A stretch of DNA of 40,313 bases from an uncultured Actinomycetota bacterium (GTDB taxonomy: Bacteria > Actinomycetota > Humimicrobiia > Humimicrobiales > Humimicrobiaceae), in the NCBI GenBank assembly GCA_964478985.1, contig CAYZJW010000003.1, positions 1 through 40,313 of the forward strand. The letters are read 5' to 3'. Positions 18,934-23,882 of the stretch are shown one piece after another. A program made the position numbers and the translations under genes. How positions within the stretch are numbered: the first letter of the stretch is position 1; every line of letters starts with the position of its first letter. Under the pieces are notes generated by a model, which saw nothing but the letters and a program-made list of their open reading frames with translations, was not told where the DNA came from and made no database searches.

Positions 18934-19935
18934 TCACTGGCTGGGATATCCCTTGTCTATCCATTCATCGATTCCCCCGCCGGCAAGGTCATATATTTCT
19001 TTGAAGCCATTAGCCGCCAGTATGGCAGCGGCATTTCCGCTCCTGTTGCAGCTGGAGCCGTTACAGTATACCAGTATGGGCCTATCCCGGGGGATCTCAT
19101 CCAGCTTCTCTTTCAGCTGGGACACAGGGATAAGCAAGGCCCCTTTGATATGCCCGGATTCATATTCCGGTCCTGACCTCACATCCACAATGATCAGATC
19201 AGGATCATTAAGGTATGCTTCATATGCCTGGTCCACTGAAATATCTATTATAAGGGAAGAAAGGCCGGAAGTATCCGCTTCCGCACCAGAGGATGCATCT
19301 TCAGCACTTTCCCCCTCTATTTCCAGGGTAATGTCTTCCATCTCTACCGGTCCTTTTTCATTAGCCTGTCCCCAGAAATTTACATATAAGGCAATCCCGA
19401 TAAGGATTATTCCAATAGCAATAAGGATATATGTCAATATTTCAACTATCAGCATCTTTCTGGCCGCGGTTATCTTTTCTGAGAATACCTTCTGAAGTGT
19501 CCAGGCATCATTAGGCTCTATGATTATTAGCAGGTTCAGGATAAATATGACAAACAAAACGATAAAATGATAGATACTGAAAGTCATATCAAGAAATCTG
19601 CCAAAACAGCCGCAAAGCATATCAGGCCTGCTTCTTAAGACATAGAATGTCACCCAGGAAAAGATGATAACCATCACATTCAGGTGTAAAGCGGCAATCC
19701 TTATATACACACCCAGTACCAGCATAATACCCAGAATCAGTTCTATTACCGGTATTGCTGCTGATGCCAGGAATGTAAGGGGGCCTCCCAGCAGGCCCAG
19801 AGCACTGATGACTCCCTGGAAGCCTTTTAGGTCTATTAACTTGAATATCCCGGATAAAAGGAATGCCATCCCGATTATTATGCGGATAACCGGTATGGCA
19901 AATTTAATAAAAGTATTCCTGCCCCTAATTTCCAT
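18934..19935 (-). CDS. membrane protein fusion: MauE/DoxX-like multi-TM domain + extra TM + C-terminal rhodanese domain
   Basis: The N-terminal 130 aa are hydrophobic (IIIGMAFLLSGIFKL...). The C-terminus IIVDVRSGPEYESGHIKGA...ILVYCNGSSCNRSGNAA...GGIDEW is a rhodanese fold with an active-site Cys loop. Confidence 0.75.
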   Translation of the reverse strand: MEIRGRNTFIKFAIPVIRIIIGMAFLLSGIFKLIDLKGFQGVISALGLLGGPLTFLASAAIPVIELILGIMLVLGVYIRIAALHLNVMVIIFSWVTFYVLRSRPDMLCGCFGRFLDMTFSIYHFIVLFVIFILNLLIIIEPNDAWTLQKVFSEKITAARKMLIVEILTYILIAIGIILIGIALYVNFWGQANEKGPVEMEDITLEIEGESAEDASSGAEADTSGLSSLIIDISVDQAYEAYLNDPDLIIVDVRSGPEYESGHIKGALLIPVSQLKEKLDEIPRDRPILVYCNGSSCNRSGNAAAILAANGFKEIYDLAGGGIDEWIDKGYPSQ

Positions 19936-19974: not shown

Positions 19975-20190
19975 CTAATCCTGGTTTCCCTCTGCTTTGG
20001 AAGCTTCCACAAGTTTCCTGGCGATCCTTAGCTCTGTCTTCATCTTTATCTCGTCCGTATAGATCCTGAGCTCTCCTACCAGTTCATTATACCTGGTGAT
20101 ATATATAGTATCCCCCTGGTTCTCCTTGAGAAACTTTGACAGCTTTATCCTGAGCTCATTGGTGTCTACTCTTTTGATCTCCTGGTTCAT
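19975..20190 (-). CDS. small protein resembling a Phd/YefM-type antitoxin N-terminal domain (no toxin partner seen)
   Basis: VDTNELRIKLSKFLKENQGDTIYITRYNELVGEL resembles the antitoxin pattern (..ELR..LS..L......PV.ITR.G.PVAVL). GGAAGGGA SD. Weak, by eye only. Confidence 0.45.
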   Translation of the reverse strand: MNQEIKRVDTNELRIKLSKFLKENQGDTIYITRYNELVGELRIYTDEIKMKTELRIARKLVEASKAEGNQD

Positions 20191-20385: not shown

Positions 20386-23300
20386 TTATTGTCCTTTTCT
20401 AGTAAGGTAGTCTATCATTGGCTGGGTGACCAGAGGCACCAGGTCCTTTATCATATGGGGCATAAGGTTATCCATTACCTCAGGCATCAGTTCCGGCATC
20501 TGCTCTTTCATATATTCAGGCATGGGTATCATCTTTCCCACCCTGTCCAGTATCACCGGCATTAGCCCGGGCATCATCCTGGGAAGGAGTATGGGAAAAA
20601 GTATGGGAAACATGGGTTTCATAAGCTTTAGGGCTCCCGGTATCCTGCCCATTGTCCTCATCATGCTGCCCATCTTAAAGGGCATGGCATCCATAAGCTC
20701 AGGCCACATGGAGGCCATAAGGTCCGCAAATCCTCTGGGACTCATAAGGGCGATCATGGCTTCAAAAACAGCCCACTGCCTCTGGACCTCGGGATCCGGG
20801 TCTTCAAATTCATATCCCAGGGCCTGGCAGGCAAAATTAGCCAAATCTATTATCTCAACCGGGAGGTGCTTTTTTTCAGCTGTCACCCTGAACTGGAACT
20901 CGCAGCAGGGGCACAGGGCAAGTACCTTTTCCGCCCCTGCTTCCACTGCTTCATCAAGCCTTTCCTTTCCCACCTCTGCCGCTACCGGCGGATCTTTTAT
21001 AAGTGTCAGGACACTGCCGCAGCAGTGAGCCTCATCCCTGATATTTTCCATCTCCACCAATTCTACACCGGGTATGGCTTTAATAAGCTCCCTGGGCTCA
21101 TCATAGACCCCGGACACCCTGCCAATATGGCAGGAATCGTGCCAGGTGACCTTAACCGGTTTCCTGCCATTCCCATTTCCGGGGAAGACAAATTCCTTTG
21201 ATCTTATCTTTTCTGCCACCAGTTCAGAGTAGTGCCTGGCCTTTATATCATATTCTATACCCAGTTTTCTTGCCCATTCCGGATAGACATGGCGCCACAT
21301 CATATCGCATGCAGGACAGGATGATATTACCGTATCTGCCCCCGCATCCTTTACTGCCTGTATGTTCTTCTTGATGGTATCGGCAAATACATCCCATTTA
21401 CCGGCTACCAGCATGGGCGTGCCGCAGCAGTTTTCCTTTTCTCCCAGTATGGTAAACTCCACCCCCGCCTCGTCAAGCAGCCTTACACCCGCCTTTCCGA
21501 TATCCTTCTCTACATAACTGGCAGTACAGCCGGCAAAATAGACATTCTTTGCTTTCTTTCCGGGACCATGTTTTTCCGTCAAGTCTTCCGGAAACCAGTC
21601 TATACGGTTCTTTCGGTAGCCGGCCCAGATATCTCCCTGGCTGGTAAGAGCTGCCGCCATCATCTCAAATGGGGGTATGGTCATCTTCTTTTGTTTATGT
21701 ATAAGCTGTCCCCTCATCTTGAGCCAGGAAGGCTCTATGGGTAGATTGGCCGAACATCTGAGATTGCATAGCTCGCATGTGGTGCAGGCCATAAATGCAT
21801 CGACCATATACTGGTCCCATTTTTCCCTTCCTTCAAGGTATTCCCTTAGCCAGTACCATCTTCCCCTGGGACTCTGGCTTTCCCACCCCCTGCCGTAGAA
21901 CTGGTCGCATTCAGGTACGCAGTAACCGCACTGGGAACAGGCATAGGCATACCATGCAACATCCCCGGGGATGCCTTTTATCTCTTTTTGCGGTATCCTT
22001 TCACCAAGTTCATGGGTGATCCTGTTTCCAAAAGGCCTTATTAGGGGCTCCATAAGGCTGGCGATCCCCATAAGCCTGCCTACGGTATTTCTATCTATGA
22101 CCTTTCCCGGGTTCAGTATGCCCTGCGGGTCGGCTTCTTTCTTAAGCGACCTTATTCTTTCCAGACGGTTTCTTCCCAGGACCCTATCTGCCATATTTGA
22201 AAAATATATACCGGTGGCATAAGGCCTTCCCCCATATTTACGGGCTATCTTTATTATTGAAAGAGTGAGGGCAAATACGAAATTATAACTGAATTTTCTC
22301 TGGTCGCTGGGAATAAACCCCAGAAGCACCACTTCCGGTTTCCCGTTCCTTCCTTTTTTTATTACTACTCCTTCCTTTACCAGGGGCTGTTCGATCTTGG
22401 TCTCTATTTCAGAAAGGACCTTGCCCAGGTTTTCCAGGGGGACTATTACTTCAGCAGGCACCAGGCTGGGCCCAAGCCTTTTTACCACCATGAGCTTAAA
22501 CCTGTTTTTCCATTCATGCTCAGCCAGCCTGTCTTCAAGGAGCTTGCCCCCGGAATCTGCAATCAGTCCGGGAAGCTTATCCATAACTTTTCTTTCATCG
22601 CTCTTCCTGAATGTAAGGGTGACAATATATTTTTCCGGAAGTATTAACCTTTCTTCTGCTGCATGTCCGCCATGCTCCATAAGGGGAGCCTGGTTTTTTA
22701 ACTGGGCCATCCTGGGATTTATAAACAGGAGTGACCATATAGGCACTGCATCCTTTATAAGCGATGCGGAGAATTCCTGGAGGTCTGATGATGAATCAAA
22801 GGCAGCCGATATAACTTTCATCTCTTCCAGGGGCATCACTTTTATGGTCATCTGGCTTATCATGCCGGTGATCCCCTCTGCATCGGCGATAAGTCCCAGT
22901 TCGTCACCTTCAAATTCTTTTATGCTTCCGTCAGCCAGGACTATCCTGGCACTTATAACGCTTTCCCTGAATTCTCCCGCCTCATATGAACCTATGCCAG
23001 AGCCTCCATGCGCCAGCCAGCCCCCTGCAGTGGATCCGGGATAGCTGGATGGATAAAGCCTGAGTGTAAGAGACTGTTTTTTAAGCTTTTTATCCAGTCT
23101 TTCCCATATTATGCCGGGCTGTATGGTGACTGTCATAGCATCAGTGTCTAAATCTATTATTTTATCCATCCTGTTAAAATCTACTACTATACCCTGCCTT
23201 ACTGGAAGAACGCCGCCATAGCCTGAGGTAGCTTTTCCTCTGGGTGTAAGCGGTATTTTGTTTTTAGAAGCCCATGCACATAATTCACCCAGCTCTTCTT

Positions 23301-23475
23301 CGGAATTCGGCTGGACTACAGCATCGGGAAGGGTATTCCCGATAAAGGGCCTGACCAGAGAAGGTACGGTAGCTATATCATGTCCGTATAATTTTCTTTC
23401 CGTCCTGTTAAAACATACCCTGTCTTCAAATCTGTCTTCCAGGTACTTTCGGTGTTGACGGGTAAAACTGCTCAT
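20386..23475 (-). CDS. FAD-binding oxidase (GlcD-like) fused to a 2x[4Fe-4S] + two CCG-domain (GlcF/HdrD-like) module, with a C-terminal Met/Pro-rich tail
   Basis: N-terminal PCMH-type FAD domain (PLTPRGKATSGYGGVLP). CSQCGYCVPEC and CTTCELCNLRC ferredoxin motifs. CCG motifs YFAGCTASY...NCCGTP and WHDSCHIGR...HCCGS. Tail of about 130 aa with about 24 Met. AGGAGG SD. Confidence 0.85.
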   Translation of the reverse strand: MSSFTRQHRKYLEDRFEDRVCFNRTERKLYGHDIATVPSLVRPFIGNTLPDAVVQPNSEEELGELCAWASKNKIPLTPRGKATSGYGGVLPVRQGIVVDFNRMDKIIDLDTDAMTVTIQPGIIWERLDKKLKKQSLTLRLYPSSYPGSTAGGWLAHGGSGIGSYEAGEFRESVISARIVLADGSIKEFEGDELGLIADAEGITGMISQMTIKVMPLEEMKVISAAFDSSSDLQEFSASLIKDAVPIWSLLFINPRMAQLKNQAPLMEHGGHAAEERLILPEKYIVTLTFRKSDERKVMDKLPGLIADSGGKLLEDRLAEHEWKNRFKLMVVKRLGPSLVPAEVIVPLENLGKVLSEIETKIEQPLVKEGVVIKKGRNGKPEVVLLGFIPSDQRKFSYNFVFALTLSIIKIARKYGGRPYATGIYFSNMADRVLGRNRLERIRSLKKEADPQGILNPGKVIDRNTVGRLMGIASLMEPLIRPFGNRITHELGERIPQKEIKGIPGDVAWYAYACSQCGYCVPECDQFYGRGWESQSPRGRWYWLREYLEGREKWDQYMVDAFMACTTCELCNLRCSANLPIEPSWLKMRGQLIHKQKKMTIPPFEMMAAALTSQGDIWAGYRKNRIDWFPEDLTEKHGPGKKAKNVYFAGCTASYVEKDIGKAGVRLLDEAGVEFTILGEKENCCGTPMLVAGKWDVFADTIKKNIQAVKDAGADTVISSCPACDMMWRHVYPEWARKLGIEYDIKARHYSELVAEKIRSKEFVFPGNGNGRKPVKVTWHDSCHIGRVSGVYDEPRELIKAIPGVELVEMENIRDEAHCCGSVLTLIKDPPVAAEVGKERLDEAVEAGAEKVLALCPCCEFQFRVTAEKKHLPVEIIDLANFACQALGYEFEDPDPEVQRQWAVFEAMIALMSPRGFADLMASMWPELMDAMPFKMGSMMRTMGRIPGALKLMKPMFPILFPILLPRMMPGLMPVILDRVGKMIPMPEYMKEQMPELMPEVMDNLMPHMIKDLVPLVTQPMIDYLTRKGQ

Positions 23476-23484
23476 AAAATCCTC

Positions 23485-23814
23485 CTATTTGATTAACTCA
23501 CTTAACATCTTATTATTATCCCTGAATTTTTCTTTAACTATCTCGCTTACCAGGTCGAAAGCCTTAAGCACCTTCAGGTCTGATATATGGTAATAAGTGC
23601 AGTTTCCCTTTATATCTGATCTTACCAGGCCCCTGGACTTTAGTATTCCCAGGTGCTGGGAGATATTTGACTGGGAAGACTCAAGCTTTGCGGAAAGTTC
23701 ATTTACATTCATGCTTCCACCCCTCAAGGTGTCTATAATAGCCAGTCTTTTGGGGTTAGAGATAGCCCTGCACAATCCTGCATGGAGATCGTAAAATTCT
23801 TGTTTCTTTGCCAT
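23485..23814 (-). CDS. ArsR/SmtB-family winged-helix transcriptional regulator
   Basis: NPKRLAIIDTLRGGSMNVNELSAKLESSQSNISQHLGILKSRGLV is the classic ArsR HTH. It lies 9 nt upstream of the FAD/Fe-S gene. I see no canonical alpha3 (CxC) or alpha5 His/Asp metal site. Confidence 0.85.
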   Translation of the reverse strand: MAKKQEFYDLHAGLCRAISNPKRLAIIDTLRGGSMNVNELSAKLESSQSNISQHLGILKSRGLVRSDIKGNCTYYHISDLKVLKAFDLVSEIVKEKFRDNNKMLSELIK

Positions 23815-23834
23815 AATAATAATATATCCTGCAT

Positions 23835-23852
23835 ATATCTATATATTGATAT
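23835..23852 (-). promoter_or_regulatory. 18-bp near-palindrome between the -10 and the arsR-like start (candidate autoregulatory operator)
   Basis: ATATCaATATATATaGATAT on the minus strand, with one mismatched pair. It abuts the -10 hexamer. The AT-rich context raises the chance expectation. Confidence 0.3.
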
Positions 23853-23853
23853 T

Positions 23854-23882
23854 ATTATATTTATATATGCTAAATATGTCAA
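23854..23882 (-). promoter_or_regulatory. consensus sigma70 promoter of the arsR-like/FAD-FeS operon
   Basis: Minus strand reads TTGACA-17 nt-TATAAT, a perfect match in both hexamers and spacing, about 40 nt upstream of the ATG at 23814. Confidence 0.6.

What the first reader, a model, noticed from the sequence alone, without database searches (positions are those of the whole stretch)
20389..20778. Extremely Met/Pro-rich C-terminal tail on an ArsR-linked FAD/Fe-S (GlcD+GlcF-like) oxidoreductase
Seen: the last 130 or so residues contain about 24 Met, often as MP or M-x2-3-M. An example stretch is MIALMSPRGFADLMASMWPELMDAMPFKMGSMMRTMGRIPGALKLMKPMFPILFPILLPRMMPGLMPV...MIPMPEYMKEQMPELMPEVMDNLMPHMIKDL. 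The tail follows a complete FAD domain, two ferredoxin motifs and two CCG domains. The gene is co-transcribed, with a 9-nt gap, with an ArsR-family regulator driven by a consensus promoter.

Established: Met-rich segments act as Cu(I)/Ag(I) ligands in copper-handling proteins (Mets motifs). They also form pliable hydrophobic binding surfaces, as in the SRP54/Ffh M domain. GlcD/GlcF-type fusions oxidise 2-hydroxy acids.

Inference: the tail may be a membrane or quinone docking device, a metal-binding or sensing module, or a sacrificial Met-sulfoxide sink. msrB lies about 1.5 kb away. I do not recognise it as a described domain.
Basis: partly seen in the sequence, partly recalled or inferred. 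Interest (0 to 1): 0.6.

Follow-up and report, generated by a model that had tools for sequence, protein, structure and literature searches.

The report
Conserved methionine-proline helical domain on redox enzyme
The methionine-rich tail is real: it is a strongly conserved, folded, so far undescribed helical domain at the electron-output end of a widespread but uncharacterised flavin/iron-sulfur enzyme of anaerobes. It most likely acts as a greasy docking surface for the membrane or a lipid-soluble acceptor, but nothing about its function has been tested.

Summary
The 1029-aa protein (window 20386-23475, minus strand) has a FAD domain, two 4Fe-4S motifs, two complete CCG motifs and a roughly 140-aa tail. 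The tail holds 24 Met and 19 Pro.

The tail is not low-complexity drift. It is 71-80% identical in 320 species genomes across Chloroflexota, Actinomycetota, Methanoperedens, Zixibacteria, Planctomycetota and others. It is as conserved as the ferredoxin module. It is always the C-terminus of this roughly 1000-1045-aa architecture.

AlphaFold2 folds the tail on its own as a confident all-helical domain (pLDDT 86.7). It matches nothing in Pfam, NCBIfam, PDB sequences or Foldseek.

- The two long helices have a 4.0-residue hydrophobic/Pro period.
- A 46-residue stretch carries +6/0 charge.
- Met columns change to Leu/Ile/Val/Phe and never to His or Cys, while Met content stays near 17%.
- The His-His-Glu metal triad of D-2-hydroxy-acid dehydrogenases is absent.
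- An ArsR gene lies upstream in 28 of 59 loci. msrB linkage is unique to this window.
- Co-occurrence with MenA is suggestive but ambiguous.

Best reading (about 0.4): a pliable hydrophobic dock for the membrane or a lipophilic acceptor.

This scan has already found and followed up the same domain in several other genomes, with the same conclusion.

The parts
23854..23882 (-). Sigma-70-type promoter TTGACA-17-TATAAT upstream of arsR
   Evidence: 12 of 12 consensus matches; sequence read.
23485..23814 (-). ArsR/SmtB-family regulator, 109 aa. It ends 9 nt before the oxidoreductase start codon.
   Evidence: HTH_5 E = 2.2e-13. NF033788 scores 75.6 bits against a cut-off of 55. An orthologous regulator lies directly upstream in 28 of 59 related loci. 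The N-terminal Cys is conserved in 30 of 32; the alpha-5 Cys is present in 20 of 32 but absent here.
20386..23475 (-). 1029-aa FAD / 2x[4Fe-4S] / 2xCCG oxidoreductase with the Met/Pro-rich C-terminal domain (coordinates include the stop codon)
   Evidence: AlphaFold2 full-length model: pLDDT 80.7, pTM 0.77.
22912..23328 (-). FAD_binding_4 domain (residues 50-188)
   Evidence: Pfam PF01565, E = 3.7e-37. Foldseek best matches are D-lactate dehydrogenase and alkyl-DHAP synthase folds.
22099..22827 (-). FAD-oxidase_C cap domain (residues 217-459). It lacks the His-His-Glu metal triad of D-2-hydroxy-acid dehydrogenases.
   Evidence: PF02913, E = 1.2e-08. Alignment to mouse LDHD: GHVGDGNFH aligns to KKGRNGKPE, and GEHG aligns to YATG. 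No invariant His lies between residues 321 and 635.
21742..21948 (-). Ferredoxin-type dicluster module (residues about 510-578; C513/516/519/523 and C564/567/570/574)
   Evidence: PF13534, E = 1.4e-09. All eight Cys are invariant. Lowest column entropy of the protein, 0.43.
21286..21540 (-). First CCG motif region (approximately residues 646-730; C650, C683-C684, C720, C723)
   Evidence: PF02754 matches two stretches. The Cys are invariant in 56 homologues. Borders are approximate and taken from the motif.
20887..21150 (-). Second CCG domain (residues 776-863; C782, C818-C819, C855, C857-C858)
   Evidence: PF02754 best stretch is 776-863. The Cys are invariant.
20389..20808 (-). Met/Pro-rich helical C-terminal domain (residues 890-1029). 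Predicted helices: 894-910, 913-921, 924-930, 935-943, 948-951, 953-982 and 987-1024.
   Evidence: 24 Met and 19 Pro. 73-81% identical among the listed best of 1451 homologues and 71-80% in the best 80 of 320 species genomes. Column entropy 0.47. AlphaFold2 on the tail alone: pLDDT 86.7, pTM 0.77. No Foldseek or sequence match to any solved structure. 4.0-residue periodicity in the two long helices.
18934..19935 (-). Context gene: MauE/DoxX membrane domain fused to a rhodanese. A weakly recurrent downstream neighbour.
   Evidence: Pfam MauE 9e-20, Rhodanese 3.2e-18, DoxX 1.9e-09. A homologue lies downstream of the oxidoreductase in 6 of 81 loci, from Actinomycetota and Chloroflexota.

Best explanation
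The last roughly 140 residues form an autonomous, strongly conserved all-helical domain of a previously undescribed family. The domain is fused directly behind the second CCG domain. That places it at the electron-output end of the chain FAD, then two [4Fe-4S] clusters, then the two CCG-bound clusters.

Its hydrophobic positions are filled mainly by Met. A central acid-free stretch (residues 931-976) carries six basic residues plus Phe and Trp. The most likely role is a pliable hydrophobic docking surface. It would attach this otherwise soluble single-polypeptide dehydrogenase to the membrane interface, or hold a lipid-soluble acceptor such as a menaquinone-type molecule next to the CCG clusters. 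This would be analogous in function, not homologous, to monotopic CCG anchors (SdhE, GlpC) and to DUF1641 'helical membrane plugin' quinone-handling proteins.

Shown: the domain exists, is conserved, has a confident predicted fold, has this composition and periodicity, and is found only in this architecture. Inferred: membrane or lipophilic-acceptor docking, and the direction of electron flow. The electron-donating substrate is unknown and is probably not handled as in canonical metal-dependent D-2-hydroxy-acid dehydrogenases.
For: Conservation and selection for Met:
- The tail is as conserved as the ferredoxin module (entropy 0.47 against 0.43; FAD domains about 1.0). Nearly every Met and Pro is invariant in 56 full-length homologues.
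- In homologues below 45% identity, Met columns hold M 57%, L 16%, I 6%, F 4%, V 4% and never His or Cys. Total Met content stays at 17%. This fits selection for flexible hydrophobic side chains rather than fixed ligands.
- One lineage (P0267) replaces most Met by Ile, Leu or Val but keeps the Pro pattern.

Fold and surface features:
- AlphaFold2 folds the tail alone at pLDDT 86.7 and pTM 0.77 as seven helices.
- Residues 931-976 have charge +6/0 and a maximum Kyte-Doolittle 19-residue hydropathy of 1.78. Helices 913-951 have a 3.67-residue amphipathic period.

Architecture and context:
- The tail occurs only as the C-terminus, after CCG2, of proteins of about 1000-1045 aa. Shorter database hits are fragments or chimeras.
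- No conserved membrane-protein partner gene is present in 81 loci.
- In the window's own class, all 10 carriers lie in genera whose genomes give MenA or weaker UbiA-family matches. 7 of 10 carriers score above the MenA cut-off, against 8 of 39 non-carriers. The three genera with no or only marginal MenA matches (22 genomes) have no carrier.
- The window's own genome has a MenA-like gene next to a UbiE/MenG methyltransferase.

Precedent from the literature: soluble oxidoreductases reach quinones through helical hydrophobic modules rimmed with basic residues (PMC13433803, PMC13524794). SdhE is a CCG protein thought to be a monotopic anchor (PMC2754724, abstract seen).
Against: - There is no experimental evidence of any kind.
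- I had no access to model coordinates. Solvent exposure of the Met residues and the tail's distance to the CCG clusters are therefore unknown.
- The whole tail is net acidic (14 K/R against 17 D/E).
- The two long helices have a 4.0-residue period rather than 3.6, which is not what a flat in-plane membrane helix would show.
- The window's genome (90.6% complete) shows no MenB, no MenD above cut-off and no MqnA.
- Five Dehalococcoidia carriers have only sub-cut-off UbiA hits (72-80 bits against 102) and no MqnA. A menaquinone pool is therefore not established in many carriers.
- The MenA co-occurrence is confounded by shared ancestry.
- The very high positional conservation (71-80% across phyla) is more than a generic membrane anchor usually needs. 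It hints at a specific ligand or partner.
Confidence: 0.4

Rival explanations
1. The tail binds a specific hydrophobic partner other than the bilayer or a quinone. Candidates are a hydrophobic substrate (the FAD domain shares the STVGGW motif with lipid-handling alkyl-DHAP synthase), a partner protein's helix, or copies of itself. Self-association could form an oligomeric hydrophobic chamber.
For: - The tail is 71-80% identical across phyla with nearly invariant Met and Pro. This exceeds what generic anchors need.
- The 4.0-residue period of helices 953-982 and 987-1024 fits helix-helix supercoiling or wrapping better than a flat amphipathic helix.
- There is weak H6/H7 self-similarity (hhalign P = 2e-4).
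- The FAD domain resembles AGPS and 6v42 in its N-terminal half.
- By general knowledge, Met-lined grooves bind hydrophobic helices (SRP54 M domain, Get3).
- DUF1641 proteins form tetrameric quinone tubes (PMC13433803).
Against: - No conserved neighbouring gene could encode a partner.
- The tail sits next to the CCG output module rather than the FAD cap in the sequence.
- No multimer prediction was possible.
- The hhalign signal may come from composition alone.
Confidence: 0.27
2. The tail is a sacrificial or protective methionine shield. Its surface Met residues would scavenge oxidants or soft electrophiles that threaten the exposed CCG iron-sulfur clusters, and Msr enzymes would repair them.
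For: - In this window the gene lies in one same-strand run with a DoxX-rhodanese fusion and msrB.
- Recurrent neighbours elsewhere are redox or thiol-stress genes: thioredoxin in 5 loci, FMN_red/WrbA-like in 6 plus 5, Flavin_Reduct in 4, DoxX-rhodanese in 6.
- The ArsR regulator has a conserved Cys or Cys pair that could sense redox state.
Against: - msrB is a neighbour only in this window, 1 of 81 loci.
- A scavenger needs no invariant positions, no invariant prolines and no defined fold.
- One lineage replaces Met by Ile, Leu or Val and keeps the domain.
- The carriers are mostly strict anaerobes.
Confidence: 0.1
3. The tail is a soft-metal (Cu(I), Ag(I) or similar) binding or sensing module. 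This would fit the ArsR/SmtB metalloregulator gene upstream.
For: - MxxxM and MxxM spacings are abundant.
- An ArsR/SmtB-family gene lies upstream in 28 of 59 loci.
- It scores over the NCBIfam 'metalloregulator' subfamily cut-off.
Against: - The tail has no Cys and about 1% His. The single invariant His (H1007) is lost in distant homologues.
- Met columns are substituted by L, I, V or F and never by His or Cys.
- The protein is a cytoplasmic Fe-S enzyme, whereas known Mets motifs act in periplasmic or extracellular settings (general knowledge).
- No cop, cus or cso genes appear in 81 neighbourhoods.
- The closest solved regulator is Rv0081. From memory, not tested here, Rv0081 is not a metal sensor.
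Confidence: 0.07
4. The tail is lineage-specific low-complexity drift with no function.
For: The composition is biased. A small 12-nt tandem repeat at 20580-20610 encodes FPILFPIL.
Against: - 1451 homologues were found, and the tail is 71-80% identical in 320 species genomes across two domains of life.
- Its column entropy equals that of the ferredoxin module.
- It has a confident autonomous fold.
Confidence: 0.01

Closest known systems
Fused or co-located GlcD-type FAD dehydrogenase with an HdrD-type CCG iron-sulfur module (archaeal glcD-hdrD pairs; E. coli YdiJ; LdhH, GlpC, GlcF, TfrB)
   Same: Same domain order: FAD_binding_4, FAD-oxidase_C, 2x[4Fe-4S], 2xCCG. All Cys motifs are complete. 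Partial NCBIfam matches to LdhH, TfrB, GlcD, GlpC and YdiJ. Sources annotate homologues as 'HdrD', 'D-lactate dehydrogenase (cytochrome)' or 'Fe-S oxidoreductase'. glcD-hdrD pairs have been proposed to couple to heterodisulfide chemistry (bioRxiv 10.1101/390617).
   Different: No curated model is met: YdiJ 75 against 1350 bits, LdhH 152 against 800, GlcD 111 against 568. The His-His-Glu metal triad of the 2-hydroxy-acid dehydrogenases is absent. None of those curated family models covers the tail: no NCBIfam match to the full protein extends past residue 880, and the tail alone matched no model. Most carriers are bacteria, which are not known to use CoM-S-S-CoB.
Monotopic CCG-domain anchors (SdhE of type E succinate:quinone reductase; GlpC)
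   Same: CCG proteins without transmembrane helices that are thought to link a soluble dehydrogenase to membrane quinone (PMC2754724, abstract).
   Different: Those proteins are separate subunits. I am not aware that they carry a Met/Pro-rich helical domain, but I did not check this against their sequences. Quinone reduction by the present enzyme is inferred, not shown.
DUF1641 'helical membrane plugin' proteins (HucM, ForE, YjlC/Ncp)
   Same: Helical hydrophobic modules with basic residues flanking inserting hydrophobic residues. They connect soluble oxidoreductases to menaquinone (PMC13433803, PMC13524794). The tail has a comparable +6/0 hydrophobic stretch.
   Different: There is no sequence or fold relationship. 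Pfam gives no PF07849 hit on the tail. Foldseek gives no PDB hit. The own genome has no DUF1641. The tail is fused to the enzyme rather than being a separate scaffold subunit. Oligomerisation is unknown.
SRP54/Ffh M domain and other 'methionine bristle' binding surfaces
   Same: Helical and Met-rich. Met is interchangeable with aliphatic residues while overall Met content is kept. This is the pattern expected for a pliable hydrophobic surface (general knowledge).
   Different: Pfam shows no SRP_SPB or other match. No Foldseek match. Regular Pro every fourth residue and a 4.0-residue period are not features of the M domain as far as I recall.
Mets-motif Cu(I)/Ag(I) proteins (CopC/PcoC, CusF, CueO insert, Ctr1)
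   Same: High Met density with MxxM and MxxxM spacing.
   Different: The setting is cytoplasmic, next to Fe-S clusters. There are no accompanying His or Cys ligands. Substitutions are aliphatic. No copper genes are nearby.

Membership tests
D-2-hydroxy-acid dehydrogenases of the VAO/PCMH superfamily (GlcD, LDHD, D2HGDH) | FAD_binding_4 plus FAD-oxidase_C fold | tested here: met
   PF01565 3.7e-37 and PF02913 1.2e-08. Foldseek TM (target-normalised) 0.83 to mouse LDHD.
D-2-hydroxy-acid dehydrogenases of the VAO/PCMH superfamily (GlcD, LDHD, D2HGDH) | His-His-Glu divalent-metal triad (HxGDGNxH ... EHG) | tested here: not met
   In the phmmer alignment to 8jdc, the motif positions align to K, E and YA. 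No invariant His lies between residues 321 and 635 in 56 homologues.
D-2-hydroxy-acid dehydrogenases of the VAO/PCMH superfamily (GlcD, LDHD, D2HGDH) | Curated family score (GlcD TIGR00387; YdiJ NF049975) | tested here: not met
   GlcD 111.4 against a cut-off of 567.9. YdiJ 75.3 against 1350.
HdrD/HdrB-type CCG iron-sulfur proteins | Two CXnCCGXmCXXC motifs plus a 2x CxxCxxCxxxC ferredoxin module | tested here: met
   PF02754 in two stretches and PF13534. All Cys are invariant.
HdrD/HdrB-type CCG iron-sulfur proteins | Partner membrane cytochrome b (HdrE- or DsrM-type) encoded alongside | tested here: not met
   No recurrent cytochrome-type membrane-protein neighbour in 81 loci. The only recurrent membrane proteins are the DoxX-rhodanese fusion (6 loci) and an MFS transporter (5 loci).
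HdrD/HdrB-type CCG iron-sulfur proteins | Heterodisulfide reductase activity | not testable with these tools
   Needs an enzyme assay.
DUF1641 / helical membrane plugin | PF07849 match or HucM/Ncp-like fold | tested here: not met
   No Pfam hit on the tail. Zero Foldseek PDB hits at E <= 10. The profile search of PDB sequences gives only chance-level hits.
Mets-motif Cu(I)/Ag(I)-binding modules | Met ligands conserved as ligands (replaced, if at all, by His or Cys), in a copper-handling genomic or cellular context | tested here: not met
   Substitutions are L, I, V or F. Cys 0.2% and His 1%. No copper genes nearby. Metal binding itself is not testable here.
SRP54 M domain | SRP_SPB (PF02978) homology | tested here: not met
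   No Pfam match at E <= 1. No Foldseek match.
ArsR/SmtB regulators (upstream gene) | Winged-helix HTH_5 domain and the subfamily score | tested here: met
   PF01022 2.2e-13. NF033788 scores 75.6 bits against 55.
ArsR/SmtB regulators (upstream gene) | A recognised metal or persulfide sensing site (alpha3N, alpha5, or BigR/SqrR Cys pair) | tested here: inconclusive
   BigR, CmtR and TsoR models score below their cut-offs. Across orthologues there is a conserved Cys before the DPxRL helix (30 of 32) and a Cys in alpha-5 (20 of 32; absent in the window protein). This fits no site I could verify.

The most novel reading that the evidence does not exclude
The Met/Pro-rich domain is a third, unrelated solution to the problem of how a soluble oxidoreductase reaches a membrane quinone, alongside DUF1641 tubes and CoxG-type extractors. 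It would be a fused, self-contained module. Its period-4 Met/Pro helices would form a flexible hydrophobic chamber that takes a lipophilic acceptor out of the bilayer and presents it to the CCG iron-sulfur site. This would make the family a single-polypeptide dehydrogenase:quinone (or other lipophilic acceptor) oxidoreductase that has spread by gene transfer among anaerobic bacteria and Methanoperedens.
Probability: 0.25. Interest if true: 0.75.

Novelty: new variant of a known kind. Interest (0 to 1): 0.5.

Why it matters
CCG-domain proteins are among the commonest electron-output modules of anaerobic metabolism. How the ones without a membrane partner hand electrons on is largely unknown.

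This case is a 140-residue domain that is as conserved as an iron-sulfur module. It is unannotated in all domain and structure libraries searched. It is present in at least 320 species from two domains of life. That makes it a concrete handle on the question.

It also offers a natural test set. Lineages with about 17% Met can be compared with one lineage where Met is replaced by aliphatic residues, to ask why methionine is selected in hydrophobic binding surfaces.

The enzyme itself has an unknown substrate, no metal triad and frequent ArsR control. It is a widespread unknown in Dehalococcoidia, Anaerolineae, anaerobic Actinomycetota and Methanoperedens.

Tried and rejected
Searches for a known domain or fold, all without a credible hit:
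- Pfam and NCBIfam on the tail.
- PDB sequence and profile searches.
- Foldseek of the tail model against PDB, with zero hits, and against BFVD, with chance hits only.
- A DUF1641 relationship: no Pfam hit, and no DUF1641 in the own genome.

Searches for context or other architectures:
I repeated it with the single sequence.
- Search for a second architecture or a stand-alone tail protein. Of 150 representatives, 6 are full length, 114 are N-terminally truncated fragments and 30 have unrelated leader stretches typical of chimeric or frameshifted calls. No independent architecture was found.
- Conserved-partner search in 81 neighbourhoods. Only ArsR is frequent; everything else occurs in 8 loci or fewer.
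- msrB linkage was rejected. It is present only in this window.

Other tests:
- Menaquinone pathway test. The result is suggestive in the own class but ambiguous overall.
- Internal duplication of the two long helices gave only a weak hhalign signal that composition could explain.
- The literature search for a description of this tail or protein family returned nothing relevant.
- I could not obtain model coordinates, so I could not compute Met solvent exposure or tail-to-cluster distances.
Full report
**Observation**

The minus-strand ORF at 20386-23475 encodes a 1029-aa protein. Pfam places these domains:
- FAD_binding_4 at residues 50-188
- FAD-oxidase_C at 217-459
- a ferredoxin dicluster module at 512-578
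- two CCG stretches, the second at 776-863

Nothing matches residues 886-1029.

That tail holds 24 Met (16.7%, against 2.7% in the body; binomial p about 1e-12) and 19 Pro. There are seven MP pairs, and Met-Met spacings are mostly 3 or 4.

The ArsR gene at 23485-23814 ends 9 nt before the oxidoreductase ATG, which follows a GGAGGA site. It is preceded by a perfect TTGACA-17-TATAAT promoter at 23882-23854. msrB (SelR domain) lies about 1.4 kb downstream.

**The tail is a conserved domain, not drift**

A search with the tail alone found 1451 proteins. Among the 120 best listed, the complete ones are about 990-1080 aa with the same Pfam architecture, the rest are shorter partial calls, and the tail is 72-81% identical. 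Their sources name Methanoperedens, Dehalococcoidia, Anaerolineae and Eisenbacteria.

A scan of one genome per prokaryotic species found 320 species encoding it. The best 80 are 71-80% identical in the tail. They come from Chloroflexota, Actinomycetota, Methanoperedens, Zixibacteria, Ignavibacteria, Thermodesulfobacteriota, Planctomycetota (Kuenenia) and others.

In an alignment of 56 full-length homologues, the tail's mean column entropy is 0.47. The ferredoxin module scores 0.43 and the two FAD domains about 1.0. Nearly all Met and Pro are invariant.

An exhaustive search of 1.8 billion cluster representatives gave 198 hits. Of the 150 listed, 6 are full length (1002-1030 aa) and 114 are N-terminally truncated fragments. 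The other 30 have unrelated leader stretches that look like chimeric or frameshifted gene calls. So the tail is known only as the C-terminus of this one architecture.

**Fold**

AlphaFold2 on the whole protein (pLDDT 80.7) predicts the tail as helices 894-910, 913-921, 924-930, 935-943, 948-951, 953-982 and 987-1024. On the tail alone, with 81 sequences, it gives pLDDT 86.7 and pTM 0.77 with the same helices. This suggests an autonomous domain.

Foldseek finds no PDB chain at E <= 10 and only chance hits in BFVD. Sequence and profile searches of PDB chains find nothing credible.

I could not obtain coordinates. Side-chain exposure and the tail's position relative to the CCG clusters remain unknown.

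**Sequence features of the tail**

1. The two long helices have a hydrophobic period of 4.0 residues (peak at 88-92 degrees; power at 90 degrees is 6-7, against 0.3-0.5 at 100 degrees). For the two helices taken together, 1 of 5000 shuffles reached the observed power at 90 degrees. Pro recurs every fourth residue in the pattern [P][polar/basic][h][h]. The short helices 913-951 have the usual 3.67-residue amphipathic period.

2. Residues 931-976 carry six basic and no acidic residues. This stretch includes the most hydrophobic 19-residue window (Kyte-Doolittle 1.78). The flanks are acidic.

3. In homologues below 45% identity, the query's Met columns hold M 57%, L 16%, I 6%, F 4% and V 4%, and never His or Cys. 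Overall Met content stays at 17% in every identity band. One lineage (P0267, 27% identity) has only 9 Met, replaced by Ile, Leu or Val, with the Pro pattern kept.

Together these points suggest selection for flexible hydrophobic side chains rather than fixed thioether ligands.

A weak similarity between the two long helices (hhalign P = 2e-4) may reflect an old duplication or only shared composition.

**The enzyme**

Both ferredoxin motifs and both CXnCCGXmCXXC motifs are complete and invariant. The predicted FAD half superposes on D-lactate dehydrogenase (TM 0.83) and on alkyl-DHAP synthase.

The His-His-Glu metal triad of LDHD-type enzymes is missing. GHVGDGNFH aligns to KKGRNGKPE, and GEHG aligns to YATG. 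The family has no invariant His between residues 321 and 635. The Arg aligned with the conserved Arg of LDHD is kept.

All curated NCBIfam models (YdiJ, GlcD, GlcF, GlpC, LdhH, TfrB, HdrB) score far below their cut-offs. Public annotations are generic or contradictory: 'HdrD', 'D-lactate dehydrogenase (cytochrome)', 'conserved hypothetical'. The donor substrate is therefore open. '2-hydroxy-acid oxidase' is not established.

**Genomic context and distribution**

The window belongs to a 1.6-Mb genome that is 90.6% complete. In a tree of 62 full-length proteins it falls in a clade of Actinomycetota sequences nested among Dehalococcoidia. Branches are shallow, and Methanoperedens is nested among bacteria. 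In its own class only 10 of 49 genomes, and 2 of 6 in its genus, carry the gene. This pattern fits an accessory gene that moves horizontally.

In 81 neighbourhoods the only frequent partner is the ArsR-family gene. It lies directly upstream in 28 of 59 loci that have enough upstream sequence. These regulators share a Cys before the DPxRL helix (30 of 32) and often a Cys in alpha-5 (20 of 32; not in the window protein). They fit no curated sensor subtype, and their closest solved relative is Rv0081.

Weaker recurrent neighbours:
- the MauE/DoxX-rhodanese fusion (6 loci)
- thioredoxin (5)
- FMN_red/WrbA-like proteins (6 and 5)
- Flavin_Reduct (4)

msrB is a neighbour only here. No cytochrome-type membrane partner and no copper gene recurs.

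**Test of the quinone idea**

In the window's own class, 7 of 10 carriers score above the MenA cut-off, against 8 of 39 non-carriers. The three genera with no or only marginal MenA matches (22 genomes) have no carrier. Relatedness confounds this comparison.

The own genome's MenA-like gene lies beside a UbiE/MenG methyltransferase. However, MenB, a MenD match above cut-off and MqnA were not found. Five Dehalococcoidia carriers have only sub-cut-off UbiA-family hits and no MqnA. A quinone acceptor is plausible but not established.

**Interpretation**

The best-supported reading (about 0.4) is a pliable hydrophobic docking module at the electron-output end. It would attach the enzyme to the membrane interface or hold a lipid-soluble acceptor near the CCG clusters.

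In function, not ancestry, it resembles two known systems:
- monotopic CCG anchors such as SdhE (PMC2754724)
- the recently described DUF1641 'helical membrane plugin' proteins, which connect soluble hydrogenase, formate dehydrogenase and NDH-2 to menaquinone (PMC13433803, PMC13524794)

Rival readings, with my estimates:
- a specific hydrophobic substrate, partner or self-assembly surface (0.27), favoured by the extreme conservation and the period-4 helices
- an antioxidant methionine shield (0.1)
- soft-metal binding (0.07)
- drift (refuted)

**Relation to earlier work in this scan**

The same domain has been flagged in many other genomes, and at least five of those flags were followed up. 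They reached the same core conclusions. This report agrees with them and adds:
- the missing metal triad
- the 4.0-residue periodicity
- the +6/0 stretch
- the substitution spectrum
- the ArsR frequency
- the MenA co-occurrence test
- the comparison with helical membrane plugin proteins

Noticed in passing
window 18934-19935 (-); homologues in L006, L029, L042, L069, L077: A MauE/DoxX membrane domain fused to a rhodanese lies downstream of the oxidoreductase in 6 of 81 loci, from Actinomycetota and Chloroflexota. From memory, it resembles the DoxX plus rhodanese (SseA) thiol-stress pair of mycobacteria. It hints at a thiol or sulfur-stress context.
   Followed up: partly
window about 23833-23846 (-), between the -10 box and the arsR ATG: An AT-rich near-palindrome (ATATATAGATATAT). 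It is a candidate ArsR operator.
   Followed up: no
own genome contig C19 (L086 3193-4826): A MenA-like UbiA prenyltransferase (119 bits against a cut-off of 102) lies back to back with a UbiE/MenG methyltransferase. No MenB, MenD or MqnA was detected in the 90.6%-complete genome. Possible explanations are menaquinone made from salvaged DHNA or an unrecognised upstream pathway.
   Followed up: partly
G043:C15:26501-26920 and G044:C1:52193-52606 (same class as the window): Two genomes of one genus carry a divergent version of the enzyme (ORFs of 1019 and 1013 aa) whose tail is only 40-41% identical to the window's. The family therefore has deep sub-lineages within one class.
   Followed up: no
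P0267 (1027 aa, representative-library hit): This distant family member keeps the proline pattern of the tail but has only 9 Met, replaced by Ile, Leu or Val. It is a natural Met-to-aliphatic variant that would be useful as a comparison.
   Followed up: partly
window 20580-20610: A 12-nt tandem repeat of 2.6 copies encodes the window-specific FPILFPIL. Most homologues read FPILFPRL or FPVLFPRL at this position.
   Followed up: no
window 19975-20190 (-): A 71-aa ORF with its own promoter-like site (TTGACA-16-TAATAT at 20287-20260) sits between the oxidoreductase and the DoxX-rhodanese gene. It has no Pfam or NCBIfam hit.
   Followed up: no
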